The notes under the pieces: generated by a model
The model's database searches: none
Told to the model about the DNA's origin: nothing
The model's input: only the letters and a program-made list of their open reading frames with translations
Assembly: GCA_021161745.1 (NCBI GenBank)
Contig: JAGHAA010000024.1
Location: forward strand, 1-38,490
Length of the DNA stretch: 38,490 bases
Direction of reading: 5' to 3'
Origin: Candidatus Aenigmatarchaeota archaeon
GTDB lineage: Archaea; Aenigmatarchaeota; Aenigmatarchaeia; CG10238-14; JAGHAA01
Part shown: positions 6,701 through 38,154 of the stretch, one piece after another
Layout of the letters: each line of letters opens with the position of its first letter
How positions within the stretch are numbered: the stretch's first letter is position 1
Made by a program: the position numbers and the translations under genes

Positions 6701-7496
6701 CATCCAAGTTTAAGTTATCCATGTTTACTGGAAGTAACTCTTTAAGCTTCTTACGATTAAGTGGTTTTAATTCTAACCTTCTGGTTACGGGAACTCTAAC
6801 TTTTTTACCTATTGCATCCTTTGTTTTTTGAAGAACTTTTGGCTTAAACGATTTTTCATCTAAAATTATTAACGAATGGTTCGGAGAAACAACAACTCTT
6901 CTTCCACTTTTAGTCATTATCTCATAAAGTTTATCGTTGCAAGGATGTCTATAAACTTCTTTAACTCTCTTCCAAACAACTCTTCCATTTTCCATCGAAG
7001 GGACTTCAAGTATACAGTCTTCACTATTAAACTTTTCCCAGAGTTCGTCCATCGTAAGATGTCTAACAACGCCGTTAATCCTAACTAATACAAATTCGTC
7101 TCCAGCTATGCTAGGTAAATCCTCAGCTGTGGCTGAACTACGGATTGCGACCCATTCCTCTTCTTTTCCAAATTCTTGTGAGAGTTGTTTGTAGGCTTTA
7201 ACTATTTCTTCCTTGATTTCTTGTGGCATCTCAGTTTCCTCTATGAGCTTTCTTATGCTTGCAGTTTTTTCCTCTAAGTCCTTTGGATTGCTGTAATCTA
7301 TAGTTTCAAGTATGCTAAATATCTTACTCCTTATACGAGTAACGTCCAAAAAGTGCTTGTAAGCTTGAGCAGTGACTATGAAAGCGTTTGGCACAGGTAA
7401 ACCAGCGTTATACATCTCACCCAAATTTGCTCCTTTACCTCCAACTTCTGGTATGTCATCTTTTATTATGTCTTTGAGAAATTTTACGAACTTCAA
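3705..7496 (-). CDS. ppsA: phosphoenolpyruvate synthase (pyruvate, water dikinase) interrupted by a 489-aa intein
   Basis: Motifs present are VGGKGANLGEM, SSATAEDLP / SASFAGQQ, the TTMTNPDW..GGITCHAAIVSRELGIP phosphohistidine domain, and the C-terminal PEP-utilising TIM barrel (GSNDLTQ). The extein totals about 786 aa counted from the ORF-track start. The ORF track starts at TTG 7532. TTG 7496 is preceded by TAAGGAGGGGGAGT and gives the usual N-terminus M-KFVKFLKDIIKDDIPEVGGKGANLGEM. Confidence 0.9.
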   Translation of the reverse strand: MKFVKFLKDIIKDDIPEVGGKGANLGEMYNAGLPVPNAFIVTAQAYKHFLDVTRIRSKIFSILETIDYSNPKDLEEKTASIRKLIEETEMPQEIKEEIVKAYKQLSQEFGKEEEWVAIRSSATAEDLPSIAGDEFVLVRINGVVRHLTMDELWEKFNSEDCILEVPSMENGRVVWKRVKEVYRHPCNDKLYEIMTKSGRRVVVSPNHSLIILDEKSFKPKVLQKTKDAIGKKVRVPVTRRLELKPLNRKKLKELLPVNMDNLNLDEDFFYFFGIFAADGTVDKHSRSIILSVFDQSVVERIKTFAKKLGIRVSTTKKDELRLYSKKLVELLENIAVKDSGKKGKGRYVKLVPDIVFNAEKKFIAEFVKGCFDGDGTVESTNVSFYNTSKRLISGLTKLLEVLGIDFYIRRKGKSLTIKILTRDTQKFLRIVGFENRRKFEKAKRIAKEFGSRERHHDFIYTLPFPTSHVRKILEERLQKRKVKVYLCPYCKNKVEKSSHYKGRERFYCRNCHKTFYSNEVIVKEELKYVGYDELGRFLEGMIPWNKGIVNDVFGIKKLQKVLSEKYGISLSEIVPEEIYWDEVKGIKEREYSGYVYDFFVPGVENFAAGTGGIITHNSASFAGQQLTLLNVKGAEQVVEGVKKCWASLFTARATFYRHQKGFSHEKVLIAVPVQKQLGALSKEDYLAGKYKAGVGFTIHPSTGDKTKILIEGSWGQGESVVSGSVNPDTYVLDKETGKVVEKHVGDKLTMRYTDLEKGGLVEISVPKELQKIECLTEDELHQLWGLAKKLEEHYGFPQDFEWASEYGKVFLLQTRPVTVFYEKRREEEKLKIKPLVKGLTASPGAAVGRVIVAKTLQEAEKLEKGDVLVTTMTNPDWVPYMKIASAIITDEGGITCHAAIVSRELGIPCIVGTENATKVLKDGQVVTVDATNGVVYPGKIEDIIEREKKEELSPEEIEAIKKLKTKTKVLMNLGVPEKIEDYKDLPFEGIGLMRIEFIIATYIGEHPNYLLEIGQEQKYVDKLAEGIAMVAKAIYPRFVVVRFSDFKTNEYRLLKGGKKYEPEEDNPMLGWRGVSRYISPEFEKAFRLECKAIKKVRDEMGLDNVWVMLPFVRTTWEVEKVLKIMEEEGLRRGEKNFKVWLMAEVPSIVFLAEEFAKLCDGFSIGSNDLTQLVLGIDRDSGLLGKMGYFDERNPAVLKAIKMLIEKAHDAGVTVSICGQAPSTYPEITEFLIKEGIDSISVNPDVVLKTRKLVYETEKKICSS
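5646..7112 (-). mobile_element. class-1 intein with LAGLIDADG homing-endonuclease domain and an extra CxxC...CxxC zinc ribbon
   Basis: The insert sits between AEDLP and SASFAGQQ of PpsA. Ser1 starts SIAGDEFVLV (block A). Block B is SPNH. The LAGLIDADG motifs are FFGIFAADGTV and FVKGCFDGDGTV. Blocks F/G are YVYDFFVPGVENFAAGTGGIITHN, followed by the +1 Ser. The zinc ribbon is CPYCKNKVEKSSHYKGRERFYCRNC. Confidence 0.85.
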
Positions 7497-7544
7497 ACTC
7501 CCCCTCCTTATATATTTCTTACCATCAATCAATAATTTCTATTA

Positions 7545-19351: not shown

Positions 19352-19690
19352 ATGGTTGACGAAATAAGTATGGACGAGTTTGAGGAAGAGGTTGTTTACT
19401 CGGATTTACCAGTAATAATAGATTTTTGGGCAAAATGGTGTGGCCCTTGCCTGGCTTTTGCTCCTACTTTTGAAAAGTATGCAAAAAAGTATGAAGGAAA
19501 AGTAAAGTTTTTTCGTTGTAACATAGAAAAGAACAGGTCTTTGGCAGAGATGTTTGAAGTTAAATCAATCCCTACGATGCTTTTCTTTTGTGAAGGGAAA
19601 GTCGTGGAAAGAATAACTGGTGCTTATCCAGAAGATTCTTTTGGAGATAAAATAGAAGAGTTTTTCAAAAAGTGTGAGAATGCGGATTAA
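19352..19690 (+). CDS. trxA: thioredoxin
   Basis: The WCGPC active site is present in FWAKWCGPCLAF. The protein is 112 aa. Confidence 0.9.
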   Translation: MVDEISMDEFEEEVVYSDLPVIIDFWAKWCGPCLAFAPTFEKYAKKYEGKVKFFRCNIEKNRSLAEMFEVKSIPTMLFFCEGKVVERITGAYPEDSFGDKIEEFFKKCENAD

Positions 19691-20894
19691 GTTAAGTTTT
19701 CCTTTTTTGTTGAAAAGAAAACAAGATAGGAGTTTACCAGATAGAGTTAGGTTTGAAGAACTAAGTGATTTGCTGAAGAAGATTAAAGAAAGTAACGATG
19801 ATCTAAAGGAATGTTACGGTAGAGGGATGGAATTGTGTCAAAGGATAATGAAAGATATGGAAAAGATGAGAGAGCATGTTCTGTCTATGGAAAAAGAGGA
19901 GAAAGATTTTTCCAGAATGGTTTATAGATTGCTTGAAAAAGTACAACCCTGTAAAGGCGAGACGTTCCAAGAATTCATGAAATTTTATGACGATGTTTTT
20001 AAAACGCTTGAAACTATCGCGAAGGTTCCTAAAAACATTCAACTAAGAGTGATGGAGAAAAAGAGTGGGGTTACGTTTACGAAGCTCATGGAGAGGACGA
20101 CTAAAGATTTGAATAAACTTAAGAAATTTGTAAAAAGAAGGTTTACTGACGAGAGATGCTCGACGATAAACGATTACGAATTCTGTTGGAAGGTTTTTAA
20201 AGAAATTAAGATGATCGAAGAGCATATGGGAGAAAAAAGAATGGAGTTAAAAAAATTATCTGAAAGTTTGAATAGATTGGAGGAGGAACTAAAAAGGAAA
20301 GAAGAGTTGTTAGAAAAAATAGAAAGATTGTTTGAAGTCGAGAGACTGAATGAAGAGAAAAAAAGGATAGAGGAGAAGGTCAAAGCTTTGGAAGAAGGTA
20401 TAACAACTTCTGTTTTTTCAGCATCTCGTGTTGTAAAGAAATCAATTCATGGGATTAAAAGTCTGGAAAACGTTTGGAAGAAAATTGAAACGGATGTATG
20501 GAGTTTAAGTAAAGAAGAAATAAATGACATCGCAGATTATCTGAATAAATCTGTCTCAAAGCTAGGGGAGAAAGAGAAACAAAAGGTTTCTCACCTGTTA
20601 AAAATACTTAGAGAGTTTGATTCTTACGTTAGAAGAAGAAAGGAGTTGATGGGATCTTTAGAAAAGATAAATTCTGAATTAGAAAGTATTGAGACTAAAA
20701 AATTAACAAACATAAGAGATGTAAAACTCGAGATCGACGAATTGAAGAAAAAGATGAGAAACATCAGTTCTAAAGTTTCTCAGCTGGGGAGCGATATCAA
20801 CAAAATGGAAAGGAAGAAGAAAACGAAGTTAAAAGTCATTCAGAAAGCTTTAAAGAAGATTGTACTAAAAGAAATTTCGATCGTGGATGATTGA
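19674..20894 (+). CDS. long coiled-coil protein of unknown function
   Basis: 406 aa, K/E/L-rich with heptad-like stretches (e.g. LKKLSESLNRLEEELKRKEELLEKIERLFEVERLNEEKKRIEEKVKALEE). The start is GTG 19674 or ATG 19680. It overlaps the trx end and overlaps the udg start by 4 nt. Confidence 0.5.
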   Translation: MRMRIKLSFPFLLKRKQDRSLPDRVRFEELSDLLKKIKESNDDLKECYGRGMELCQRIMKDMEKMREHVLSMEKEEKDFSRMVYRLLEKVQPCKGETFQEFMKFYDDVFKTLETIAKVPKNIQLRVMEKKSGVTFTKLMERTTKDLNKLKKFVKRRFTDERCSTINDYEFCWKVFKEIKMIEEHMGEKRMELKKLSESLNRLEEELKRKEELLEKIERLFEVERLNEEKKRIEEKVKALEEGITTSVFSASRVVKKSIHGIKSLENVWKKIETDVWSLSKEEINDIADYLNKSVSKLGEKEKQKVSHLLKILREFDSYVRRRKELMGSLEKINSELESIETKKLTNIRDVKLEIDELKKKMRNISSKVSQLGSDINKMERKKKTKLKVIQKALKKIVLKEISIVDD

Positions 20895-27159: not shown

Positions 27160-27456
27160 ATGGTAACGAAAGAAGAGGTAATGAAGGCTTTATCGACAGT
27201 CAAAGACGTGGAAACTGGTTTTGACATAGTAGAAATGGGTTTGATAACTGGAGTAGAAATAAAAGGAGATTATGTGAAGGTTAAAATGACACTTACGACA
27301 CCACTCTGCCCTTATGCAGGTTACCTTTTTGAAGAAACAGAAAAGGCTGTTAAAAAGCTTAAAGGCGTAAAAAAGGTCGAGGTTGAGTACGATTGGGAAC
27401 ATCCATGGACACCGGAGATGGCGTCAGAAAGAATAAGGAAAATGCTTGGAATTTAA
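27160..27456 (+). CDS. DUF59/MIP18-family Fe-S assembly-associated protein (SufT-like)
   Basis: 98 aa. The V.DPE-like segment (VKDVETGFDIVEMGLI) and the conserved TLTTPLCP motif are present. Confidence 0.75.
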   Translation: MVTKEEVMKALSTVKDVETGFDIVEMGLITGVEIKGDYVKVKMTLTTPLCPYAGYLFEETEKAVKKLKGVKKVEVEYDWEHPWTPEMASERIRKMLGI

Positions 27457-27779
27457 ACTCTTTTTATTTCACCCTTTGGCTGAATTATCAAAGGTCTGGA
27501 CTCAGTTAAAGCTTGTGCTATCTTTTTTCTTGCAGACTCTGCTAAGCGCCAAACAGTTGCGCGTGATGTGTTCATTTTGTTGGCAGCTTCTTCTTGTGTC
27601 AAACCTTCTAAATCAAGCAAACGTAGCACTTCGTACTCCGCATAACTGAGCTCTATCGGTTGTGGATTAAGCATAGGTTGGGGTACGAATTCTTTAACGT
27701 TTGGCAAAGAATAGAGAAATAGCCAACTTGGAGGCCTACCCCTTCCAAACTTTCTACATCCCCAACGCCAACGAGGCAT
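27453..27779 (-). CDS. DUF134 (UPF0251) family predicted DNA-binding protein
   Basis: The MPR-basic N-terminus is followed by EYEVLRLLDLEGLTQEEAANKMNTSRATVWRLAESARKKIAQAL, a sigma-70 region-4-like HTH typical of DUF134. The gene is divergent from the operon at 27867. Confidence 0.75.
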   Translation of the reverse strand: MPRWRWGCRKFGRGRPPSWLFLYSLPNVKEFVPQPMLNPQPIELSYAEYEVLRLLDLEGLTQEEAANKMNTSRATVWRLAESARKKIAQALTESRPLIIQPKGEIKRV

Positions 27780-27788
27780 ACTACCAAT

Positions 27789-27810
27789 TATGTGTTATTG
27801 CACAAAATTT
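27789..27810. promoter_or_regulatory. 22-nt operator-like repeat R1, TATGTGTTATTGCACAAAATTT
   Basis: It matches R2 at 20 of 22 positions. It contains the TGTG-N6-CACA dyad. It lies 10-31 nt upstream of the DUF134 ATG. Confidence 0.6.
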
Positions 27811-27832
27811 AAATAGTTTTGATTCTTAGATT

Positions 27833-27854
27833 TATGTGATAATGCACAAAATTT
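27833..27854. promoter_or_regulatory. 22-nt operator-like repeat R2, TATGTGATAATGCACAAAATTT
   Basis: It is a direct repeat of R1, 44 bp downstream (start to start). It abuts the GGAGGT Shine-Dalgarno site of the 27867 ORF. Confidence 0.6.
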
Positions 27855-27866
27855 GGAGGTGATATT

Positions 27867-28217
27867 ATGCCTTGGTGGGGAGGTCGGGGAGGAAGAGGAT
27901 TTAGATGGATGTTCTGGTTAACGGGTATGCCAGGATGGGCAAGATGGGGCTATGGTTATGGTTACTCTGGAGTATATCCATGGTTCTGGAGATGTAGATG
28001 GTTTCCATGGCTTCCCAGAGGTTGGTGGACAGGAATATATGGACCAGTAACCTGGACGCCACAAGGCCCTGTTTTAACGCAGCAAATTCAACAGCCTATA
28101 ACACAACCAACAGTTCAAAACGAGATAGAGTACTTAAAAGAACAAAAGAGAATGTTGGAAGAGGAACTTAAAGCGATAGAAAAAAGAATAAAAGAATTGG
28201 AGGCGATGTTAAAATGA
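27867..28217 (+). CDS. DUF5320-like protein with an extremely Trp/Arg/Gly/Tyr-rich N-terminal half and a C-terminal coiled coil
   Basis: A GGAGGTGA Shine-Dalgarno site lies 7 nt upstream. There are 13 Trp in the first 63 residues. The C-terminal EIEYLKEQKRMLEEELKAIEKRIKELEAMLK resembles the DUF5320 coiled-coil tail. The stop overlaps the next ATG (ATGA). Confidence 0.65.
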   Translation: MPWWGGRGGRGFRWMFWLTGMPGWARWGYGYGYSGVYPWFWRCRWFPWLPRGWWTGIYGPVTWTPQGPVLTQQIQQPITQPTVQNEIEYLKEQKRMLEEELKAIEKRIKELEAMLK

Positions 28218-28759
28218 AGATTCTTGTTGCTACCCAAGGACCTGGTGGATTGGATGATGTGGTCTCTGCGGTGTTTGGTAGAGCACCAAGCTTTACGATA
28301 GTTGAAGTGGAAGGTAAACAAATAAAAAACGTTGAAACGCTTACTAATCCTGCTGCAAACGCTTTTGGTGGAGCAGGCATCCAAGCTGCTCAGCTTGCAG
28401 TGGAGAAAGGAGTTAATGTAGTAATTACTGGTAACATGGGACCAAACGCTTCGATGGTACTACAGCAATCGGGGATTCAGATAGTTACTGACTTCGTTGG
28501 AATGAAAGTTAAAGATGCTATAGATGCTTTTTTGCAGAAGGGGTTTAGCTCATCACAACAGTTATCGACTACACAACCTATGCCTGTTCCAACAGTTCCA
28601 TACCAAGTGGGTGAGAAATCTAAGTTAGATTTAGAGTTTGAGAAGCGAATGCTTGAGTTGCAGAAGCAAATGATAGAAGAACAGATAAAGTACATCGAGA
28701 AGAAGATAAAAGAGTTGGAAGGTAAAAAGAATGAGAATCGTTATACCTCTCGAGAGTAA
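28214..28759 (+). CDS. NifX/NafY-like (Nitro_FeMo-Co family) domain protein with a C-terminal linker plus coiled-coil extension
   Basis: MKILVATQG...VSAVFGRAPSFTIVEVE...NPAANAFGGAGIQAAQLAVEKGVNVVITGNMGPNA is the canonical family pattern. Residues 111-181 are an added Q/P/T linker plus heptad segment. Confidence 0.8.
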   Translation: MKILVATQGPGGLDDVVSAVFGRAPSFTIVEVEGKQIKNVETLTNPAANAFGGAGIQAAQLAVEKGVNVVITGNMGPNASMVLQQSGIQIVTDFVGMKVKDAIDAFLQKGFSSSQQLSTTQPMPVPTVPYQVGEKSKLDLEFEKRMLELQKQMIEEQIKYIEKKIKELEGKKNENRYTSRE

Positions 28760-29069
28760 TGAGGGAGAGAATTCAAAAGTTTCATGGCACTTTGGTAGGG
28801 CCTCATACTTTGCAATATTCGACACAGTAAACAAAAAGTTGGAGATAATAGAAAATAGGAGTGAACATTTTGGTGGTGTAGGAAAGCCAGCAGAAATTAT
28901 AGCGAAAATTCAGCCAGATATGGTGTTTGCAAAAGGTATGGGACCTAAAGCTATACAGCTGTTGACATCGAGAGGTATTAAGGTGGTGACAGGTAACTAT
29001 TCTATTTTAAAAGAGATAATACAAAACATCGATAAACTAGTGGAATTGAATGAGAGTTGTAAAGAATAA
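28731..29069 (+). CDS. NifX/NafY-like (Nitro_FeMo-Co family) domain protein
   Basis: MRIVIPLES...VSWHFGRASYFAIFD...FAKGMGPKAIQLL..RGIKV fits the family pattern. It overlaps the preceding gene by 29 nt. Confidence 0.75.
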   Translation: MRIVIPLESNEGENSKVSWHFGRASYFAIFDTVNKKLEIIENRSEHFGGVGKPAEIIAKIQPDMVFAKGMGPKAIQLLTSRGIKVVTGNYSILKEIIQNIDKLVELNESCKE

Positions 29070-29865
29070 AGTAATAGTTCTTCCAATCCTTTGCATCTTT
29101 TTACTATCAGTTATTTTAATAATGAATAAAGGTGAGTTTGAAATGGTTAATATGGCTAAGAATCTTACGATTGTAGTGGTTTATGACAATACAGCCTACC
29201 TACCCAACTTAAAAGCGGATCATGGTTTTTCCTGTGTTGTTAGAATTGATGGCAAAAAGATCCTCTTTGATACAGGAACTGATGAAAATGTGCTGCTGAA
29301 TAACTTGGAAAAATTGGGCATTCGACCAGAATCAATCTCTACCATTATTCTTTCGCACGAGCATACCGACCATGTTGGTGGGCTCGAGGGTTTTTTAAAA
29401 AAGAATGGGAACGTTACGGTATACTTGCTGGCCTCATTTCCAACCGAATTTAAACAAATGATTAAAAGCTTTGGTGCAAACGTTGTAGAAGTTTCTGAAC
29501 CGAGGAGAATAGACGAATCCGTTTATTCTACAGGCAAATTAGGAATCTTTATACAAGAGCAGGCATTAGTTATCAACACACCGAAGGGTTTGGTTGTAAT
29601 AACTGGATGTGCACATCCTGGAATTGCCAATATAGTTAGGTTTGTTGAACAAAAGTTTGGGAAAGTTTATTTGGTTGTTGGTGGTTTTCATCTGATGTGG
29701 TCTTCTGAAGACGAAATAGGTAAAGTGTTAAGAGAGTTGAAAGAATTAGGCGTGGAAAAAGTTATGCCATGCCATTGTACAGGCAAGTTAGCATCTGAAA
29801 TGTTTAGGAAAACTTTCAAAGAAAATTTTGAAGAATGTGGTGTTGGAAGAATCTTAAAAATATAG
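29050..29865 (+). CDS. metallo-beta-lactamase-fold protein (COG1237-like)
   Basis: HGFSCVV...ILFDTG and the SHEHTDHVGG zinc motif (HxHxDH) are present, with C-terminal GGFHL...PCHCTG. The ATG 29050 form adds a hydrophobic N-terminal segment. An alternative ATG at 29143 follows a GGTGA Shine-Dalgarno site. Confidence 0.7.
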   Translation: MRVVKNKVIVLPILCIFLLSVILIMNKGEFEMVNMAKNLTIVVVYDNTAYLPNLKADHGFSCVVRIDGKKILFDTGTDENVLLNNLEKLGIRPESISTIILSHEHTDHVGGLEGFLKKNGNVTVYLLASFPTEFKQMIKSFGANVVEVSEPRRIDESVYSTGKLGIFIQEQALVINTPKGLVVITGCAHPGIANIVRFVEQKFGKVYLVVGGFHLMWSSEDEIGKVLRELKELGVEKVMPCHCTGKLASEMFRKTFKENFEECGVGRILKI

Positions 29866-29877
29866 GAGGTTGATAGG

Positions 29878-30129
29878 ATGAAAGGGTTTGGCAGTGGTTT
29901 TGGAAGAGGTGGTATAGGTAGGGGTCGAAGAGGAATGGGAAAAGGACGAGGACAGGGTAGAGGTCGAGGGATGGGACGTGGTCGAGGAAGAATGGGTGGA
30001 TTTGGCTTAGGACCTGGTGGTGAGTGTGTTTGTCCAAACTGTGGTTACAGAGTCCCTCATGAACCTGGAATACCTTGCTTTAACATAAAATGCCCAAAAT
30101 GTGGGACACCTATGACAAGGATGAGGTAA
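29878..30129 (+). CDS. small protein with an Arg-Gly repeat N-terminus and a Cys-rich zinc ribbon
   Basis: A GGAGGT Shine-Dalgarno site lies 8 nt upstream. The N-terminus is MKGFGSGFGRGGIGRGRRGMGKGRGQGRGRGMGRGRGRMGGFG. It is followed by ECVCPNCGYRV...PCFNIKCPKCGTPM, which carries six Cys. Confidence 0.65.
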   Translation: MKGFGSGFGRGGIGRGRRGMGKGRGQGRGRGMGRGRGRMGGFGLGPGGECVCPNCGYRVPHEPGIPCFNIKCPKCGTPMTRMR

Positions 30130-30156
30130 AAGTTTGTTTACAGAATACTATGGAGT

Positions 30157-31002
30157 GTGAATATGCGAATTTATGTGAGCTCTGGAACGAAAGGAGGTGT
30201 GGGCAAGTCAACGTTCGCGGTTTTACTTTCTTTGAAATTGTCTAAAAGTTCAAAGGTTTTGCTTTTCGATGCTGATGTTGAATGTCCTAACGACTATTTG
30301 CTTCTTAGTCAGAAGCTTAAAGAGTCTGTCGGGTTTACGTATCAAGAATTTCCAGAAATAGATGAACAGAAATGTAAAAAATGTGGTGTTTGTGCTAAAG
30401 TTTGTAGAGAGCATGCCATTTTTTGGGTTCCTGGCAAGTATCCGATAATACTCAACGATCTATGCTCTGGTTGTGGTGCATGCAAAATAGCTTGTCCATT
30501 TAATGCCATAAGGATGAACAGAAAAGTTTCTGGCGAGATTTTTGTCAACCAGATTAACCCAAACCTTTGGCTTGTAACTGGTTTATCAAAACCTGGAATA
30601 ACGGAGACAGGTCCTGTAGTTAAACAAGCAAAGGATTTTGTATTGAAGTTTGCGGAAGAAAGAGGGATAGATTATTTAATTGTCGACACAGCTCCTGGTA
30701 CACATTGTAACGTTATACAGGCCTTACTTAATGCAGAAAAGGTCTATGCTGTTACAGAACCTACACCGTTGGGTGCTCATGATTTAAGCATAATGTTGGA
30801 ACTAACGAAAAGAATTGGGATAAAAAGTGAAATAGTTTTGAACAAGTCAAATATTGGCAACAGAAAATTGATAGAAAAAGTTTCTAAAGAGTATAACGTC
30901 CCGATAAGCGTTGAGATTCCTTATAGCGAGGAACTGGTAAAAGCTTATAGTACTGGTAAGCTTGTGGAGTTTACTGATAAACTTAAATTGGTGGTTGAAT
31001 GA
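30157..31002 (+). CDS. MinD/ParA-superfamily P-loop ATPase with an inserted 2x[4Fe-4S] ferredoxin domain (COG1149-like)
   Basis: The deviant Walker A is GTKGGVGKST. The cluster motifs are CKKCGVCAKVC and CSGCGACKIACP. Walker B is LIVDTAPG. The start is GTG 30157 or ATG 30163. Confidence 0.8.
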   Translation: MNMRIYVSSGTKGGVGKSTFAVLLSLKLSKSSKVLLFDADVECPNDYLLLSQKLKESVGFTYQEFPEIDEQKCKKCGVCAKVCREHAIFWVPGKYPIILNDLCSGCGACKIACPFNAIRMNRKVSGEIFVNQINPNLWLVTGLSKPGITETGPVVKQAKDFVLKFAEERGIDYLIVDTAPGTHCNVIQALLNAEKVYAVTEPTPLGAHDLSIMLELTKRIGIKSEIVLNKSNIGNRKLIEKVSKEYNVPISVEIPYSEELVKAYSTGKLVEFTDKLKLVVE

Positions 31003-31853
31003 AAATAGTAGTTGCAAGCGGTAAAGGAGGCGTTGGTAAAAGTATGCTTGCAAGCTCTTTAGTAGTTTTACTGAGTAAGGAAAGGGAGATCGTTGCTTGT
31101 GATTGCGATGTTGACGCACCAAACCTTGGTCTGTGGTTAGGTGTAACGAATTATGATGAAGTTAAAAGAATTTCAACATCTGAAAAAGCTTTTATAATCG
31201 ATGCTGATGCTTGTAAAGGAAAGCTTAAGCCGAGTGATTGTAAGTTTGGAGCAATCGAAATAAAAGAAGGTAAACTTTGGATAAATCCGTTTCTATGTGA
31301 GGGTTGTGGAGTTTGTAAGTTGTTATGCAAAGATGGAGTAGAGTTAAAGCCTGTGGAGAATGGAGAAATAAGAATAACCAAGACGAAGTATGGGTTTACA
31401 CTCGTTTCAGCACAACTTTATCCAGGTGAGAAAGGTTCTGGTAAGGTAGTTGAAGAGTTGAGAAGGCATGCTGAAAAGTTTGGTGGTTTCATTCTGATGG
31501 ATGCTGCGGCTGGCATAGGTTGTCCAGTCATAGCGTCTTTGCGTGGTGTTGATTATGCTATCATGGTTACTGAACCAACGCTCTCTGGGCTCTCAGATTT
31601 GAAAAGGGTGATGAGCATAGCAAACCATTTTAAGGTTCCTTACAGCGTTGTTATAAACAAGTATGACATAAACGAAGGGATGAGTAAGAAGATTGAGGAA
31701 GAGTTTGGAGATAAGATTCTTGGAAAGATTAGTTATGATAAAAGCGTTATAGATGCGATAGTAAACCTTAAACCTGTTGTTGAAACCGAAAGCAAGGTCG
31801 TTGAGGAAATAAAACAGATTTTTGAAAGGTTGAAAGAAGAAATCAAAATTTAG
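30999..31853 (+). CDS. MinD/ParA-superfamily P-loop ATPase with an inserted, partly degenerate ferredoxin domain
   Basis: Walker A is SGKGGVGKS. Only one complete cluster motif remains (CEGCGVCKLLC). The first motif is reduced to C-x9-C. Walker B is ILMDAAAG. It overlaps the preceding gene with ATGA. Confidence 0.8.
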   Translation: MKIVVASGKGGVGKSMLASSLVVLLSKEREIVACDCDVDAPNLGLWLGVTNYDEVKRISTSEKAFIIDADACKGKLKPSDCKFGAIEIKEGKLWINPFLCEGCGVCKLLCKDGVELKPVENGEIRITKTKYGFTLVSAQLYPGEKGSGKVVEELRRHAEKFGGFILMDAAAGIGCPVIASLRGVDYAIMVTEPTLSGLSDLKRVMSIANHFKVPYSVVINKYDINEGMSKKIEEEFGDKILGKISYDKSVIDAIVNLKPVVETESKVVEEIKQIFERLKEEIKI

Positions 31854-31881: not shown

Positions 31882-32448
31882 CTACATCATCACTATACTC
31901 AAGAAGAAGTCCTGTAAAAAGTAAGCCAACAAGATGTTGTAAACAGCATTCGTTATGTATGCGAATATGTACATGTAGTCTTGCCTTATGAATATATCCA
32001 TCGTTGCTAACAACAAACCTTTCACGATCATGCATACAGCAACTATGATAACGAAAGGGATCTGATTTGCCCAAAGTATGCTTGCTAAAGCACTTATTAT
32101 ACCATAAACGACATTATCAGGCGTCGGTAAGAAAGGAGGATATTTCATCTGCATAGGTGGAGTTAATTGCCATGAGACTATGCTCAAGAAACCTGTCAAT
32201 ACGGGCATTACTAAAAAACCAAAGATAAAACCACCAATAGGTCCTTCTATCATGCCTACGAGTATCATAGGGATAAAAATGAGGTCTATTCCTATGTACG
32301 AGTTTATCTTGATGAAGGAAGTAAAGATGACTTTGTCTATCCAGATCATCACATAGATTATTCCATAGCCTAAACCACCAAGCTTTGAAAAAATCCAAAA
32401 GCCTGCTATCAAGCTTATGAGAGCTTCTATAAGCCAGCGTGTATTCAT
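31882..32448 (-). CDS. polytopic membrane protein of unknown function (about 6 TM, ECF S-component-like size)
   Basis: 188 aa and hydrophobic throughout. Copy 2 of the GTTATACGTATAAC palindrome lies 53 nt upstream of its ATG. Confidence 0.5.
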   Translation of the reverse strand: MNTRWLIEALISLIAGFWIFSKLGGLGYGIIYVMIWIDKVIFTSFIKINSYIGIDLIFIPMILVGMIEGPIGGFIFGFLVMPVLTGFLSIVSWQLTPPMQMKYPPFLPTPDNVVYGIISALASILWANQIPFVIIVAVCMIVKGLLLATMDIFIRQDYMYIFAYITNAVYNILLAYFLQDFFLSIVMM

Positions 32449-32500
32449 GATCTATATGTGAAAATTGTGGTCGGTTTTAAAAATTTTTAAGGTTTATCAA

Positions 32501-32514
32501 GTTATACGTATAAC
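32501..32514. promoter_or_regulatory. perfect 14-bp palindrome GTTATACGTATAAC (copy 2 of 3)
   Basis: Read directly. It lies upstream of the membrane-protein gene and abuts the 5' truncation point of the MBL pseudogene. Confidence 0.75.
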
Positions 32515-32530
32515 ACATCTTCATAATTAT

Positions 32531-32817
32531 TCTGGATGTGCACATGTGGGTATTATAAAATTCCATAAGGTAATTCTTAAAAAATAACTGGGAGAGAAAA
32601 AGTGTATGGTATAGTTGGAGGTTTGCACCTTAAAAACGACAAACAGAAAATAAACAATACGATCAGAAAATTGAAGAAGATAAATCCTACTTACATACTT
32701 CCATGCCATTATACGGGTTATGTTGCTGTTAATAGAATGATAGAAGAATTCAGTGAAGAACGTGTGATAACATCTCCTACAGGAAGTTTTTCAGTAGGTG
32801 AGAAGTGGAGCATATGA
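32531..32817 (+). pseudogene. 5'-truncated, frameshifted remnant of an MBL-fold (COG1237-like) gene, paralogous to 29050..29865
   Basis: The frame starting at 32531 reads SGCAHVGIIKFHKVILKK-stop, matching TGCAHPGIANIVRFVEQKF of the intact paralog. A second frame from about 32590 reads GREKVYGIVGGLHL...LPCHYTG...SVGEKWSI, matching FGKVYLVVGGFHL...MPCHCTG...GVGRILKI. The HxHxDH half is missing. Confidence 0.7.
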
Positions 32818-32895: not shown

Positions 32896-33111
32896 ATGGT
32901 GAGTCAAGTGTTTGTTTTAGTCTTCGACTTCCCAAGAAGCTTGACAACAGAAAGAAGACAGCTAAACAGAATGCTCCACCGTATAGGAGCCAAGCGTTTG
33001 CAAGACTCGCTTTGGAGACACGAAGACCTTAATTCTTTGATGGAAGTTGCGATGTTTATAAAACGGTTTGGCGGAAGTGCAAGAATCTTGGAAGAGAGGT
33101 TCGTTTTCTAA
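32896..33111 (+). CDS. small stand-alone Cas2-like / PaaX-C-like ferredoxin-fold protein (tentative)
   Basis: 71 aa. VFVLVFDFP...ERRQLNRMLHRIGAKRLQDSLWR....LMEVAMFIKRFGGSARILEERFVF follows the beta-alpha-beta-beta-alpha-beta pattern. The 'v.fD.p....rr.l.r.L...G...lq.SvW' signature is that of Cas2-like domains. No CRISPR array or other cas genes are in the window. Confidence 0.35.
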   Translation: MVSQVFVLVFDFPRSLTTERRQLNRMLHRIGAKRLQDSLWRHEDLNSLMEVAMFIKRFGGSARILEERFVF

Positions 33112-36355: not shown

Positions 36356-36886
36356 ATGGTTAAATTTTTTGAACTACTATCTTCAAGAACGTTGGGAAAA
36401 ATCTTAGATGTTATGCTTGAGAATTCGAACAAAGAGTACAGCTTAAGAGAAATAATAAAGAAGTCCAAAGTTTCAAAGATAACGGCTTTGAACAATCTGA
36501 AGAAGCTATCTAAAATGGATGTAGTAGAGAAAATCAGAAAAAATGATGGAAGAGTGTTTTTTAAAATAAAGAATAACTCGTTAACACATGAGTTAAAACT
36601 GTTGTGGATAGTGTCTCAACTCTATCCGTTCTTTAAGAATGTTGACTATGAGGTTTATCTTTTTGGAAGTTATGCTAATGGCGATTATGATGAAAACAGT
36701 GACATAGACTTGTTGATTTTTCAGAGGAGAACGAAGGAAATTATCAGAACAATAAGAAGGATTGAGAATAAATTGAAGAAGAGAGTTAACGCTATATTCT
36801 ATACACCCATTGAATGGATGAAAGTAAAAAAAGTTAATCCAGGATTTTTTGAGATGGTGGAAAGAAGCAAGGTAAGGATATCATGA
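36356..36886 (+). CDS. winged-helix plus minimal nucleotidyltransferase (MNT) protein, antitoxin-like partner of HEPN
   Basis: YLFGSYANGDYDENSDIDLLIF fits the GSxxxG..x..SDIDLL MNT signature. The N-terminal ~80 aa have a wHTH pattern. It overlaps the HEPN gene by 4 nt. Confidence 0.75.
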   Translation: MVKFFELLSSRTLGKILDVMLENSNKEYSLREIIKKSKVSKITALNNLKKLSKMDVVEKIRKNDGRVFFKIKNNSLTHELKLLWIVSQLYPFFKNVDYEVYLFGSYANGDYDENSDIDLLIFQRRTKEIIRTIRRIENKLKKRVNAIFYTPIEWMKVKKVNPGFFEMVERSKVRIS

Positions 36887-37305
36887 GAGTAGAAGAATTG
36901 GTAAAAAGAGGATTTCTGAAGAGAATAAAACCGGATAAAAGAATGGTGGAACATGAATTAAAAGAGGCTGAGTATGATTTAGAAAAAGCAAAGATTAGCT
37001 ATCAAGAAGGAGATTTTAAGTGGTCTACTATAAAAGCTTACTATACTATGTTTCATGCTGGAAGAGCAATCCTTTTCTCGAGGGGATTTAAAGATAGACG
37101 TCATTTCGCTGTAGGTATGTTCTTAGAAGAACTTGCGAAAAGAGGAGAAATCAAGTTTTCGCTCGTGGACTCTTTCAGGGCTGGTATGTCAGCAAGAGAG
37201 GATGCCGATTACGGTGGCATTTATTTTGAAGATGTCGCATTACAGACTCTTCAGATGGCTGAGGAATTTGTGGAAGAAGTGAAGAAAATTTTATTCAAGA
37301 AGTAG
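36883..37305 (+). CDS. HEPN-domain protein (toxin-like partner of MNT)
   Basis: 140 aa and all-helical. YYTMFHAGRAILFSRGFKDRRHFAV and the AREDADYG motif are typical of HEPN proteins paired with MNT genes. Confidence 0.65.
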   Translation: MRVEELVKRGFLKRIKPDKRMVEHELKEAEYDLEKAKISYQEGDFKWSTIKAYYTMFHAGRAILFSRGFKDRRHFAVGMFLEELAKRGEIKFSLVDSFRAGMSAREDADYGGIYFEDVALQTLQMAEEFVEEVKKILFKK

Positions 37306-37322: not shown

Positions 37323-37374
37323 ACGTCCATGATAAACTAATTTATTTTATAGCGATGAATTTTATTTGAGAAGC

Positions 37375-38154
37375 ATGCCTTTACCAAGAATAATAGCGAT
37401 AACGTCAGGAAAGGGTGGTGTAGGCAAAACGACAGTTTCTGTAAACCTTTCTGCAACACTCGTAAACTACTTTAAAAAGAAAGTGACGATAATCGATGCT
37501 AACGTAACCACTCCTCATCTAGCTCTTCATTTTGGTATTTACAAATACGACGCAACTCTTAACGATGTCTTGCGTGGGAGAGCAGACTTGTCTGATGCCT
37601 CTATACTTCATCCTAGTGGGATACAGATAATCCCGGCTTCTTTGAACCTCACCGATTTAGTCGGAGTAGATATAGCGACTCTTGGGGATGTGTTGAAGGA
37701 CATGTTACCTACAGAGGATTTCATCATAATAGATTCTGCTCCAGGATTTGGAAAGGAAGCAGTATCTGCTTTAAAGGCTTGTGAAGAAGCTATTATCGTT
37801 TCTACGCCGACTGTACCAGCTATAATGGATGCTATCAAAGCGAAAAAAGTTCTGCAGGAGCTTGGTGTCGAAAATCTAGGGCTTGTTTTGAACAAAGTAA
37901 TGGGAAGAAAGTATGAGTTGAAAAGGAGTGAAATAACTGAGCTCATAGACCTTCCAGTCTTGGCAGAAATACCATTCGATGAGAAATTTCAGGAAGCTTT
38001 GGCGGCAAAGATGCCCTTAATCCTTTACGATAGAAAATCACCCACAACTCTTCAATTCCTAGAACTAGCATCAATTCTTACTGGAGAAAAGTACGAAATG
38101 CCAAGGTTAAGTATATGGGCAAGGATCAGGAAACTTTTCTGGAAGTTTTCTTAA
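37375..38154 (+). CDS. minD: MinD/ParA-family P-loop ATPase
   Basis: The deviant Walker A is SGKGGVGKTT and Walker B is IIIDSAPG. The ORF track starts at TTG 37366, but ATG 37375 is more likely. Confidence 0.75.
   Translation: MPLPRIIAITSGKGGVGKTTVSVNLSATLVNYFKKKVTIIDANVTTPHLALHFGIYKYDATLNDVLRGRADLSDASILHPSGIQIIPASLNLTDLVGVDIATLGDVLKDMLPTEDFIIIDSAPGFGKEAVSALKACEEAIIVSTPTVPAIMDAIKAKKVLQELGVENLGLVLNKVMGRKYELKRSEITELIDLPVLAEIPFDEKFQEALAAKMPLILYDRKSPTTLQFLELASILTGEKYEMPRLSIWARIRKLFWKFS

What the first reader, a model, noticed from the sequence alone, without database searches (positions are those of the whole stretch)
27453..31853. Eight-gene translationally coupled operon plus divergent DUF134 regulator: candidate uncharacterised metallocluster-handling system
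SEEN: Eight same-strand ORFs (27867..31853) are joined by ATGA overlaps at 28214 and 30999. Overlaps of 29 nt (28731) and 20 nt (29050) also occur, and the gaps are 27 nt or less, so a single transcription unit is likely. Two members carry strong GGAGGT Shine-Dalgarno sites. The gene order is: W/R/G-rich DUF5320-like protein, NifX-like protein with coiled coil, NifX-like protein, MBL-fold protein, RG-repeat zinc ribbon, MinD-ferredoxin ATPase, MinD-ferredoxin ATPase. A DUF134 HTH gene is divergent, and a duplicated operator-like repeat lies in the spacer. ESTABLISHED: The NifX/NafY (Nitro_FeMo-Co) fold binds complex metalloclusters. As I recall, the Desulfovibrio orange protein (Mo-Cu cluster) belongs to this fold. 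Also from memory, it is encoded with MinD/ferredoxin-type ATPases in the orp cluster, whose physiological role is unresolved. INFERENCE: This is an ATP- and redox-driven cofactor assembly, trafficking or insertion machine. The two low-complexity proteins and the shared coiled coil would act as scaffolding elements. It lies directly downstream of Suf, Cbi, Feo and DUF59 genes. I know of no functional description of this full composition.
Basis: partly seen in the sequence, partly recalled or inferred. Interest (0 to 1): 0.8.

Follow-up and report, generated by a model that had tools for sequence, protein, structure and literature searches.

The report
Archaeal orange-protein (ORP) type operon
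This is an archaeal version of the known but functionally unresolved "orange protein" (ORP) gene cluster of anaerobes, carrying extra conserved small proteins and an undescribed DUF134 regulator whose likely DNA-binding site could be read from the sequence.

Summary
A compact same-strand operon (27867-31853) lies opposite a divergent DUF134 gene, and all domain calls hold. There are seven operon genes, not eight. The 20-nt overlap at 29050 depends on an uncertain start codon.

The core matches the anaerobe-specific ORP system of Desulfovibrio. It has an orange-protein-type NifX-fold protein (E 9.6e-15 to D. gigas ORP), a second NifX-fold protein, and two paralogous MinD-type ATPases with ferredoxin inserts (Orp3/Orp4-like).

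The other parts are not oddities of this window. DUF134, DUF5320, an RG-tailed zinc ribbon with six Cys and one His, and a COG1237-type metallo-beta-lactamase recur with this core in about 160 fetched loci. These span DPANN archaea, Thermoplasmatales, Dehalococcoidia, Desulfobacterota and others. Fusions occur too: DUF134-zinc ribbon in 18 loci, DUF134-NifX in 2.

The spacer repeat is an imperfect 20-bp palindrome (TTWTGTG-N5-GCACAAAA). It flanks a TATA-like box and recurs in ORP-type promoters of five related contigs.

Most likely this is an ATP- and electron-driven metal-sulfur cluster carrier or insertion complex under DUF134 control. The biochemical function remains unproven, as it does for ORP itself. 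I rate it a new variant of a known kind, of moderate interest.

The parts
27453..27779 (-). DUF134 (UPF0251) small HTH protein with an R/G-rich N-terminus; presumed regulator of the operon and of itself
   Evidence: PF02001 scores 75.3 bits (cutoff 27), with sigma-70 region 4-like HTH hits. DUF134 is the only transcription-factor-like protein that recurs in these clusters: 32 of 82 genome loci plus fusions. No PDB relative was found.
27788..27810 (.). Operator copy 1 (TTATGTGTTATTGCACAAAATTT), an imperfect palindrome TGTG-N6-CACA. It lies between the TATA-like box and the DUF134 start codon.
   Evidence: 0 of 100 shuffles. The same 20-bp palindrome occurs in ORP-type promoters of L089, L096, L135, L137 and L162.
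27808..27815 (.). TTTAAATA, an archaeal TATA-like box shared by the two divergent genes
   Evidence: Read directly from the sequence. The same TTTAAATA lies next to the motif in L089. Promoter function is inferred.
27832..27854 (.). Operator copy 2 (TTATGTGATAATGCACAAAATTT), between the TATA-like box and the Shine-Dalgarno site (GGAGGT, 27855-27860) of the first operon gene
   Evidence: L089 has the orthologous site 39 nt upstream of its DUF5320 gene, with one mismatch.
27867..28217 (+). DUF5320 protein: a W/R/G-rich N-terminal part with a conserved FWRCRWFPWLPRxWW motif, plus a C-terminal coiled-coil helix
   Evidence: PF17253 scores 34.5 bits (cutoff 27). Clear orthologue in L089 and a related one in L162. 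A 'MPWGDCTGPWWM' type sits divergent from DUF134 in L139, L147, L151, L155 and L157.
28214..28759 (+). Orange-protein-type NifX-fold protein (Orp8-like) with no Cys, fused to a DUF5320-type C-terminal helix
   Evidence: PF02579 scores 86.5 bits. PDB hits are MTH1175 at 5.9e-18 and D. gigas ORP 2wfb at 9.6e-15. It is 34% identical to the Desulfovibrio sp. X2 ORP. The helix is shared with the DUF5320 protein.
28731..29069 (+). Second NifX-fold protein (PH0822/TM1290 type), with one Cys near the C-terminus
   Evidence: PF02579 scores 67.9 bits. PDB hits are PH0822 at 1.4e-11 and TM1290 at 5.4e-10. A second NifX-type gene follows the ORP-type gene in most related loci.
29050..29865 (+). COG1237-type metallo-beta-lactamase-fold hydrolase (SHEHTDH and PCHCTG motifs). 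The start is uncertain: 29050 gives a hydrophobic N-terminal segment; 29143 or 29152 do not.
   Evidence: PF00753 scores 56 bits. PDB hits are 7dck at 1.3e-52, TM1679 at 3.4e-36 and 2p4z at 5.3e-31. Homologues sit inside ORP-type operons in many loci.
29878..30129 (+). Small protein with a disordered G/R-repeat N-terminal half and a C-terminal zinc-ribbon/rubredoxin-like knuckle. C50, C52, C55, H61, C67, C72 and C75 are invariant.
   Evidence: Family of 455 or more 90%-identity clusters, present in 403 or more species genomes. Alignment A1. In the AF2 model residues 46-83 have pLDDT about 90 and residues 1-45 below 50. Foldseek gave only generic zinc-ribbon or rubredoxin matches, none at E <= 0.001. 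Fused to DUF134 in 18 loci.
30157..31002 (+). MinD/ParA-type ATPase (KGGVGKS) with a complete 2x[4Fe-4S] ferredoxin insert; Orp3/Orp4-like. The probable start is ATG 30163.
   Evidence: CbiA, ParA and Fer4 hits. It is 31% identical to both ATPases of the Desulfovibrio sp. X2 orp locus. It is always paired with and precedes the second type, apart from two loci.
30999..31853 (+). Second, paralogous MinD/ParA-type ATPase (KGGVGKS). Its ferredoxin insert keeps one complete CxxCxxCxxxC motif and a degenerate first motif.
   Evidence: CbiA and ParA hits, with only weak HdrA-type ferredoxin matches. It is 38% identical (1e-55) to the second ATPase of the Desulfovibrio sp. X2 orp locus. The best metagenome relative is 69% identical.

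Best explanation
The locus is an archaeal, probably DPANN-type, member of the anaerobe-specific ORP (orange protein) gene-cluster family.

**Proposed mechanism**
- Shown by homology: two paralogous MinD-type ATPases with deviant Walker A motifs and ferredoxin inserts correspond to Orp3/Orp4.
- Inferred from the Desulfovibrio pull-downs: they form a hetero-oligomer with NifX-fold carrier proteins. One carrier is orange-protein type and Cys-free. The other is a second type.
- Inferred: the complex uses ATP hydrolysis and low-potential electrons. It holds, matures or hands over a metal-sulfur cluster (Fe-S, or a heterometallic Mo/W-S species as in ORP) to client proteins.
- Inferred: a shared DUF5320-type helix links the W/R/G-rich DUF5320 protein to the orange-protein-type carrier.
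- The COG1237 metallo-hydrolase is a conserved accessory enzyme of unknown substrate.

**Proposed regulation**
- DUF134 controls expression by binding as a dimer to a 20-bp palindrome (TTWTGTG-N5-GCACAAAA).
- Two copies flank a shared TATA-like box. Occupancy would therefore block both the operon and the DUF134 gene.
- The site is shown to be conserved. Binding and repression are inferred.
- The RG-tailed Cys6His zinc ribbon most likely works with DUF134 as a metal- or redox-sensing partner, because the two are fused in many genomes. This would be analogous to the Fe-S-containing PAS sensor of OrpR in Desulfovibrio.
For: **Homology of the core**
-.
- ORP literature: PMC6345978 reports a complex of Orp3, Orp4, Orp5, Orp8 and Orp9, with Fe-S transfer from MrpORP to Orp3-Orp4-Orp8. 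PMC8359166 reports that OrpR senses redox through an Fe-S cluster.

**Synteny**
- Of 82 loci anchored on the zinc ribbon, 66 have NifX-type genes within 6 kb, 49 have MinD-Fer4 genes, 32 have DUF134, 19 have the MBL and 10 have DUF5320.
- Among the 80 loci anchored on the second ATPase, contigs that extend far enough upstream show the two ATPase types as an adjacent pair in the same order (two exceptions), with NifX-type genes upstream and the MBL often inside the operon.
- The closest relative, L086 (69% identity), has the same order: NifX, MBL, zinc ribbon, ATPase 1, ATPase 2.

**Link to named ORP clusters**
- Bacterial loci L046, L006 and L060 carry the zinc ribbon.
- L046 and L006 also carry DUF134 and the same MBL type.
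- All three encode proteins above the NCBIfam MrpORP equivalog cutoff (515-523 bits against 450).

**Domain fusions**
- DUF134-zinc ribbon in 18 loci and DUF134-NifX in 2.
- NifX with a G/R tail in 40 of 187 NifX ORFs. NifX-GR-DUF5320 helix fusions also occur.

**Operator**
-.
- Sites with 0-2 mismatches lie in the promoters of DUF134, DUF5320, NifX and ATPase genes in L089, L096, L135 and L137. L162 has one 43 nt upstream of a MinD/Mrp-type P-loop gene.
- The total is 30 sites against 5-14 in shuffles.
- Three of these five contigs (L096, L135, L137) also encode the same R/G-N-terminal DUF134 subtype as the window.

**Context pointing to Fe-S and iron**
- SufC/SufBD, FeoB and DUF59 lie next door.
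- FeoB is adjacent in L096, L099 and L102.
- The zinc ribbon, NifX and both ATPases are kept in a complete 0.71-Mb Pacearchaeota genome (L009).
Against: - No biochemical function is established even for the Desulfovibrio ORP complex. Its role is described as 'still unclear', with a possible link to cell division (PMC8359166).
- The window lacks an MrpORP-type protein. The P-loop gene at 37366 is an archaeal MinD (TIGR01969, 220 bits).
- The second NifX-fold protein lacks the Cys residues of the Orp5/MrpORP-domain type (HFGHC), so Fe-S binding by it is doubtful.
- The second ATPase has lost half of its ferredoxin Cys ligands.
- The Desulfovibrio sp. X2 orp locus has no zinc ribbon, DUF134 or COG1237 MBL. 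These parts are therefore not universal to ORP systems.
- DUF134 binding to the palindrome, co-transcription and complex formation are all inferred. No expression or protein data exist for this organism.
Confidence: 0.6

Rival explanations
1. It is a spatial or cell-division system. The MinD-like ATPases would act as membrane-associated positioning proteins, as first proposed for the Desulfovibrio ORP complex. The metal centres would serve only as redox switches.
For: - ORP proteins are 'putatively involved in cell division', and inactivating OrpR gives morphological defects (PMC6345978, PMC8359166).
- MrpORP localises to the cell pole, and Orp3/Orp4 have a MinD-like C-terminal amphipathic helix (PMC6345978).
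- The window ATPases belong to the MinD/ParA superfamily.
Against: - Both ATPases score far below the MinD models: TIGR01969 gives 38 and 66.9 bits against a cutoff of 201.75.
- A separate, true archaeal MinD is encoded at 37366 (220 bits).
- The invariant partners are cluster-binding NifX-fold proteins.
- The genomic context is Suf, Feo and DUF59, not division genes.
Confidence: 0.12
2. It is a metal (Mo/W/Cu) or sulfide buffering and detoxification module. The NifX-fold proteins would sequester thiometallate-type species, as the Mo-Cu cluster of ORP suggests. The ATPases and the MBL would process or release them. No client protein would be matured.
For: - ORP binds a non-covalent [S2MoS2CuS2MoS2] cluster (PMC6345978).
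- The window's orange-protein-type protein has no Cys, which fits non-covalent binding.
- In O. alaskensis G20, two NifX-type genes that my own recollection places in the orp operon (Dde_3197, Dde_3198) respond strongly to copper-surface stress (PMC10533852).
Against: - No Mo/W or Cu transporters or enzymes occur in the window.
- The cluster is retained in very small DPANN genomes (L009).
- Neighbours are Fe and Fe-S genes.
- MrpORP transfers Fe-S clusters to Orp3-Orp4-Orp8 in vitro (PMC6345978).
Confidence: 0.12
3. It is a nitrogenase-type cofactor (FeMo-co) trafficking system, as the Pfam name Nitro_FeMo-Co and the NifX label suggest.
For: Pfam PF02579 hits on both small proteins. There are weak hits to the nifB C-terminal domain and to nifX.
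Against: - The nifX equivalog TIGR02663 scores 18.4 bits against a cutoff of 112. nifB scores 17.3 against 343.
- No nifHDK, nifEN or nifB genes lie in the window.
- The cluster occurs in DPANN archaea with minimal fermentative gene sets.
Confidence: 0.03

Closest known systems
ORP (orange protein) complex and orp operons of Desulfovibrio vulgaris Hildenborough and relatives (Orp3, Orp4, Orp5, Orp8, Orp9/MrpORP; regulator OrpR)
   Same: - An orange-protein-type NifX-fold protein (E 9.6e-15 to D. gigas ORP).
- Two adjacent paralogous MinD-type ATPases with ferredoxin inserts (38% identity, 1e-55, to the Desulfovibrio sp. X2 pair).
- An additional NifX-fold protein.
- Restricted to anaerobes.
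- A dedicated regulator binding a palindrome in a divergent promoter region.
- G/R-rich low-complexity ORFs also lie next to ORP in Desulfovibrio sp. X2.
   Different: - No MrpORP in the window.
- The regulator is a 108-aa DUF134 HTH protein with an archaeal-type promoter, not the sigma-54 enhancer-binding protein OrpR. The palindrome differs too: TTTTGTGC-N4-GCACAAAA against GGGCGYRTTTTGCGCCC.
- Extra conserved genes: DUF5320, the Cys6His zinc ribbon and the COG1237 MBL.
- The orange-protein homologue carries a coiled-coil extension.
- The second ATPase has a degenerate ferredoxin insert.
- All genes form one operon, not two divergent ones.
MTH1175 / PH0822 / TM1290 / TM1816 structural-genomics NifX-fold proteins (PDB 1eo1, 2yx6, 1o13/1t3v, 1rdu)
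   Same: Same fold family, and these are the best sequence matches to the two small proteins (5.9e-18 and 1.4e-11).
   Different: They are single-domain proteins of unknown function. None carries the DUF5320-type helix.
COG1237-type MBL-fold hydrolases (PDB 7dck, TM1679 3h3e, 2p4z)
   Same: Full-length match to 7dck at E 1.3e-52. The HxHxDH and C-terminal HCTG motifs are present.
   Different: The PDB entries are named only generically, and I found no paper on them in the library. The operon association described here is not part of their annotation.
Mrp/NBP35/ApbC Fe-S carrier ATPases
   Same: Deviant Walker A P-loop ATPases implicated in Fe-S delivery. There is weak similarity in the N-terminal P-loop region.
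   Different: The window ATPases carry an inserted ferredoxin domain rather than the bridging CxxC motif. They score far below the ApbC and MrpORP cutoffs.

Membership tests
ORP (orange protein) gene cluster / complex | Orange-protein (Orp8) homologue of the NifX fold | tested here: met
   Protein 28214-28759 against D. gigas ORP 2wfb: E 9.6e-15 over residues 2-108. It is 34% identical to the Desulfovibrio sp. X2 ORP.
ORP (orange protein) gene cluster / complex | Two adjacent paralogous MinD-type ATPases, each with two [4Fe-4S] ferredoxin motifs (Orp3/Orp4) | tested here: met
   Both ATPases are present, adjacent and orthologous to the Desulfovibrio sp. X2 pair. Caveat: the second keeps only one complete Cys motif.
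ORP (orange protein) gene cluster / complex | Small Cys-containing NifX-type protein (Orp5/Dde_3197 class) that binds [2Fe-2S] | tested here: inconclusive
   A second NifX-fold gene is present (28731-29069). It lacks the HFGHC-type Cys seen in the Desulfovibrio sp. X2 126-aa protein. Dde_3197 is described as NifX-family in PMC10533852.
ORP (orange protein) gene cluster / complex | MrpORP (Orp9): Mrp/NBP35 domain fused to a NifX-type domain | tested here: not met
   No such gene lies in the window. The P-loop gene at 37366-38154 is an archaeal MinD (TIGR01969, 220.3 bits; MrpORP 77 bits against a cutoff of 450). Related bacterial loci L046, L006 and L060 do meet the cutoff.
ORP (orange protein) gene cluster / complex | Control by sigma-54 and the enhancer-binding protein OrpR | tested here: not met
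   No EBP is present. A DUF134 gene lies divergent in its place. OrpR is reported as restricted to Deltaproteobacteria (PMC8359166).
ORP (orange protein) gene cluster / complex | Physical complex of the proteins; bound Mo-Cu or Fe-S clusters | not testable with these tools
   Needs anaerobic purification, ICP-MS and EPR.
NifX/NafY (nitrogenase FeMo-co carriers) | Score above the nifX equivalog model; nif gene context | tested here: not met
   TIGR02663 scores 18.4 bits against a cutoff of 112. No nif genes in the window.
MinD (cell-division ATPase) | Score above the minD_arch or minD_bact models | tested here: not met
   TIGR01969 scores 38 and 66.9 bits against a cutoff of 201.75.
DUF134 (PF02001, UPF0251) | Pfam gathering score | tested here: met
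   75.3 bits against 27, covering profile positions 4-96 of 98.
DUF5320 (PF17253) | Pfam gathering score | tested here: met
   34.5 bits against 27, but only profile positions 35-99 match. The usual MPRGDGTGP N-terminus is replaced by a W-rich segment.
COG1237-type MBL hydrolase (7dck / TM1679 type) | Full-length similarity and the HxHxDH metal motif | tested here: met
   7dck at E 1.3e-52 over residues 4-239. SHEHTDH and PCHCTG motifs are present.

The most novel reading that the evidence does not exclude
DUF134, together with the RG-tailed Cys6His zinc ribbon (separate or fused), is a widespread and so far undescribed metal- or redox-sensing transcription-factor system of anaerobic archaea and bacteria. 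It would govern ORP-type operons through a 20-bp palindrome, as the functional counterpart and possibly forerunner of OrpR. In reduced DPANN genomes with only SufBC, the ORP-type machine it controls would be a core Fe-S delivery system rather than an accessory one.
Probability: 0.3. Interest if true: 0.65.

Novelty: new variant of a known kind. Interest (0 to 1): 0.45.

Why it matters
The ORP system is conserved across anaerobes. It has been studied since the orange protein was found, yet its role is still called unclear.

This locus and its roughly 160 relatives show a larger and more regular conserved parts list than the Desulfovibrio model suggests. It includes DUF134, DUF5320, a Cys6His zinc ribbon and a COG1237 hydrolase. 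Gene fusions tie the regulator to the metal-binding parts, and the cluster survives in a 0.7-Mb archaeal genome.

Three concrete handles follow:
- a candidate regulator-operator pair that can be tested by gel shift;
- candidate sensor domains;
- a hydrolase to assay.

DUF134 and DUF5320 have essentially no literature. Only three papers in the held library mention them in passing.

The work does not itself reveal the biochemical function.

Tried and rejected
1. **Idea that the zinc ribbon is the Orp5/Dde_3197 'small iron-sulfur protein': rejected.**
   - PMC10533852 describes Dde_3197 as homologous to NifX-family proteins.
   - The Desulfovibrio sp. X2 orp locus was fetched through the D. gigas ORP sequence. 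It has a Cys-bearing NifX-type 126-aa gene after the two ATPases and no zinc ribbon by tblastn.
2. **My first label 'Mrp' for the gene at 37366-38154 was wrong.** It is an archaeal MinD. The 'Mrp' counts therefore mean 'other MinD/Mrp-type P-loop ATPase'. Only the 407-425 aa proteins were verified as MrpORP.
3. **Exact look-up of the 181-aa protein** found no record. The best metagenome relative of the second ATPase is 69% identical, so the source organism is not in those collections.
4. **Fold search of the zinc-ribbon model** gave only generic zinc-ribbon or rubredoxin-like matches, none at E <= 0.001.
5. **Literature searches** for 7DCK, COG1237, TM1679, MptB, COG1342, COG1149 and UPF0251 returned nothing useful. 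Fievet 2011 (PMC3133258) is not held.
6. **No tRNA or Rfam hits** in the window.
7. **A second spacer motif does not match the window.** The bacterial-type divergent DUF134|DUF5320 loci share TTTAAGTATATTGTCTCATAAGTTACTA, which does not resemble the window's palindrome. The operator is therefore subfamily-specific.
8. **The sigma-70 promoter/terminator scanner was not used,** because the organism is archaeal.

Full report
**1. What is in the sequence**

The ORF listing shows seven + strand genes between 27867 and 31853, and a divergent 108-aa gene at 27453-27779.

- *Junctions*:
  - ATGA start/stop overlaps lie at 28214 and 30999.
  - A 29-nt overlap lies at 28731.
  - Gaps of 12 and 27 nt precede 29878 and 30157.
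  - GGAGGT lies upstream of 27867 and 29878.
- *MBL start.* The 20-nt overlap at 29050 assumes the longest ORF.
  - Most homologues of this protein, including the closest (L086, E 2.2e-95), begin just before the I-x-YDN motif.
  - An ATG at 29143 has AAAGGTGAG six nt upstream.
  - Two homologues (L007, L105) nevertheless also carry a hydrophobic N-terminal extension. The start is unresolved.

**2. Domain assignments** (Pfam and NCBIfam)

| Gene | Result |
|---|---|
| 27453-27779 (-) | DUF134, 75.3 bits |
| 27867-28217 | DUF5320, 34.5 bits; only the C-terminal two thirds of the profile match |
| 28214-28759 | Nitro_FeMo-Co, 86.5 bits |
| 28731-29069 | Nitro_FeMo-Co, 67.9 bits |
| 29050-29865 | Lactamase_B, 56 bits |
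| 30157-31002 | CbiA/ParA plus a full set of Fer4 hits |
| 30999-31853 | CbiA/ParA; only weak HdrA-type ferredoxin similarity |
| 29878-30129 | No family above cutoff |

- The insert of the second ATPase keeps one complete CxxCxxCxxxC motif and a degenerate first motif (CKGKLKPSDC).
- Neither NifX-like protein reaches the nifX equivalog (18.4 bits against 112). Neither ATPase reaches the MinD models (38 and 66.9 bits against 201.75).
- The C-terminal helix of the DUF5320 protein recurs at the end of the 181-aa NifX-like protein (40% identity over 57 aa). The 'shared coiled coil' is therefore real.

**3. Context**

- Upstream lie thioredoxin, SufC, SufBD, CbiMQO, FeoB and DUF59.
- The rest of the window encodes glycolytic and gluconeogenic enzymes, a PEP-utilising enzyme with an intein, a thioredoxin-reductase-like flavoprotein and small HTH proteins.
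- Archaeal markers are PH0730-like/DUF4443, an archaeal-type MinD at 37366 (TIGR01969, 220 bits) and a TTTAAATA box.
- The best genome matches of the zinc ribbon are in Aenigmatarchaeota and other DPANN archaea. A DPANN-like fermentative archaeon is the likely source; this is an inference.
- No nif genes or Mo/W enzyme genes are present.

**4. Relation to the known ORP system**

- *PDB matches.* The 181-aa protein matches MTH1175 (5.9e-18) and the D. gigas orange protein (2wfb, 9.6e-15). The 112-aa protein matches PH0822 and TM1290.
- *What is known about ORP.*
  - In D. vulgaris the complex comprises Orp3 and Orp4 (MinD-like, each with two [4Fe-4S] motifs), Orp5, Orp8 (the orange protein) and Orp9/MrpORP.
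  - MrpORP transfers Fe-S clusters to Orp3-Orp4-Orp8 in vitro (PMC6345978).
  - OrpR senses redox potential through an Fe-S cluster.
- *A Desulfovibrio orp locus for comparison.* Using the D. gigas ORP sequence I fetched the locus of Desulfovibrio sp. X2 (L084).
  - Its gene order starts with two sigma-54 EBPs and two G/R-rich ORFs without Pfam hits.
  - ORP, two MinD-Fer4 genes and a Cys-bearing NifX-type protein follow.
  - A 130-aa ORF without Pfam hits and an MBL-rhodanese gene close the locus.
  - The window's second ATPase is 38% identical (1e-55) to the second ATPase there. The first is about 31% identical to both. The 181-aa protein is 34% identical to ORP.

**5. The accessory genes are conserved parts of a larger family**

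- *The zinc-ribbon family.*
  - It has 455 or more 90%-identity clusters. C50, C52, C55, H61, C67, C72 and C75 are invariant.
  - Hosts include DPANN archaea, Thermoplasmatales, methanogen relatives, Dehalococcoidia, Desulfobacterota, Syntrophorhabdus, WOR-3, KSB1, Latescibacteria and others.
- *Neighbours of the zinc ribbon.* Within 6 kb in 82 loci, phmmer with the window proteins finds NifX-type genes in 66, MinD-Fer4 in 49, DUF134 in 32, the MBL in 19 and DUF5320 in 10. Nearly all lie on one strand.
- *Loci anchored on the second ATPase.* In 80 metagenome loci (best 69% identity), contigs long enough to show it carry the two ATPase types as a pair in fixed order, with two exceptions.
  - The orange-protein type and second-type NifX genes precede them.
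  - The MBL often sits inside the operon. FeoB follows in three loci.
  - L086 repeats the window's order: NifX, MBL, zinc ribbon, ATPase 1, ATPase 2.
- *Link to named ORP clusters.* Bacterial loci L046 (Syntrophorhabdus aromaticivorans), L006 and L060 combine the zinc ribbon with proteins above the NCBIfam MrpORP cutoff (515-523 bits against 450).
  - L046 and L006 also carry DUF134 and the same MBL type.
  - This ties the accessory genes to bona fide ORP clusters.
- *Fusions*.
  - DUF134-zinc ribbon occurs in 18 loci and DUF134-NifX in 2.
  - NifX with a G/R-rich tail occurs in 40 of 187 NifX ORFs.
  - NifX-GR-DUF5320 helix fusions also occur.
- *Annotation.* Many zinc-ribbon proteins start with the MPRGDGTGP motif, and NCBI names them DUF5320.
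- *Retention in a small genome.* The cluster is kept in a complete 0.71-Mb Pacearchaeota genome (L009).

**6. The zinc ribbon**

- The AlphaFold2 model built on alignment A1 has a confident C-terminal knuckle (pLDDT about 90 for residues 46-83) and a disordered G/R-rich half.
- Foldseek returns only generic zinc-ribbon or rubredoxin-type matches, none significant.
- Four Cys form the classic CxxC...CxxC pair. C50, H61 and C67 are extra invariant ligand candidates.
- My idea that this protein is Orp5/Dde_3197 was rejected.

**7. The operator**

- The 23-nt repeat is an imperfect 20-bp palindrome, TTWTGTG-N5-GCACAAAA.
- The ideal form, TTTTGTGCATATGCACAAAA, occurs in L135 next to an orange-protein-type gene.
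- Sites with 0-2 mismatches lie in ORP-type promoter regions:

| Locus | Position of site |
|---|---|
| L089 | 39 nt upstream of the orthologous W-rich DUF5320 gene |
| L096 | Upstream of DUF134 and of the NifX gene |
| L135 | At the NifX gene and at ATPase 1 |
| L137 | At the NifX gene and at ATPase 1 |
| L162 | 43 nt upstream of a MinD/Mrp-type P-loop gene; two further sites (2674, 12101) were not matched to an annotated gene |

- Across 1.75 Mb of loci plus the window there are 30 hits, against 5-14 in 20 shuffles.
- L096, L135 and L137 encode the same R/G-N-terminal DUF134 subtype as the window.
- In the window, TTTAAATA (27808-27815) lies between the two copies.
  - One copy sits between the box and the DUF134 ATG, giving a near-leaderless transcript.
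  - The other sits between the box and the Shine-Dalgarno site of the operon.
  - This geometry suggests autoregulated repression of both promoters. That reading is an inference.

**8. Interpretation**

- *Identity.* That this is an ORP-family cluster is well supported.
- *Mechanism.* An ATP- and electron-dependent metal-sulfur cluster carrier or insertion complex rests on three things: homology, the in vitro Desulfovibrio data, and the Fe/Fe-S context.
- *Regulator and sensor.* The fusions point to DUF134 acting with the zinc ribbon (or a NifX domain) as sensor. This parallels the Fe-S sensor of OrpR.
- *Untested parts.* The roles of DUF5320 and the MBL are unknown. A published computational note flags RG motifs in Methanosarcina DUF134 and DUF5320 proteins as possible G-quadruplex binders (PMC7565180). 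Nucleic-acid binding by the RG tails is therefore an open alternative to 'scaffolding'.
- *Rivals.* Cell-division or positioning, metal buffering and nitrogenase cofactor handling are each less well supported.

**9. Verdict**

- This is a new variant of a known kind. It adds a conserved accessory parts list and a candidate regulator-operator pair to an old open problem, but it does not resolve the function. Interest 0.45.

Noticed in passing
window 32480-32817 (+): A frameshifted C-terminal remnant of a second COG1237-type MBL. GCAHVGI reads in one frame and GGLHL...LPCHYTG in another. It is 37% identical to the operon's MBL (5e-7). It lies just past the convergent membrane-protein gene 31882-32448. 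Probably a pseudogene.
   Followed up: partly
window 3705-7532 (-): A 1275-aa PEP-utilising enzyme (PPDK_N, PEP-utilizers, PEP-utilizers_C) interrupted by an intein with a LAGLIDADG homing endonuclease.
   Followed up: no
window 37366-38154 (+): A bona fide archaeal MinD (TIGR01969, 220.3 bits, cutoff 201.75). It is distinct from the two ferredoxin-insert ATPases of the operon.
   Followed up: partly
window 36356-37305 (+): An overlapping nucleotidyltransferase/HEPN gene pair, resembling a minimal toxin-antitoxin type module.
   Followed up: no
window 27867-28217; L089 1402-1785; L162 2698-3030: The W-rich part of the DUF5320 protein is not mere low complexity. The motif (F)W(R)C(R)(W)FPWLPRxWW is conserved between the window, L089 and, partly, L162.
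   Followed up: partly
L084 7059-7900 (Desulfovibrio sp. X2 orp locus): Two ORFs without Pfam hits lie directly upstream of ORP. One is 168 aa, Cys-rich with a G/R tail. The other is 112 aa of G/R/Q repeats. G/R-rich low-complexity proteins therefore accompany ORP in Desulfovibrio too, although the zinc ribbon is absent.
   Followed up: partly
L139, L147, L151, L155, L157, L160 (DUF134|DUF5320 spacers): A different conserved spacer element, TTTAAGTATATTGTCTCATAAGTTACTA, lies between a divergent DUF134 (N-terminus MCPCRGRRRGRRW) and a 'MPWGDCTGPWWM' DUF5320 gene. It may be the operator of another DUF134 subfamily, or it may simply reflect close relatedness of these contigs.
   Followed up: no
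L046 398-2255 (-), Syntrophorhabdus aromaticivorans UI: A second pair lies a few kb from the main ORP cluster. It consists of a NifX protein with a GMGR-repeat and DUF5320-helix tail, and a COG1237 MBL. So the NifX and MBL pairing recurs within one genome.
   Followed up: no
L009 (Candidatus Pacearchaeota Pace33H, complete genome, 710,724 bp): An ultra-small complete archaeal genome still carries the zinc ribbon, NifX and both ferredoxin-insert ATPases.
   Followed up: no
window 19674-20894 (+), 31882-32448 (-) and 32896-33111 (+): ORFs of 406, 188 and 71 aa with no Pfam hit at the thresholds used. By eye, the 188-aa sequence looks like a multi-pass membrane protein; it lies convergent with the end of the operon.
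   Followed up: no
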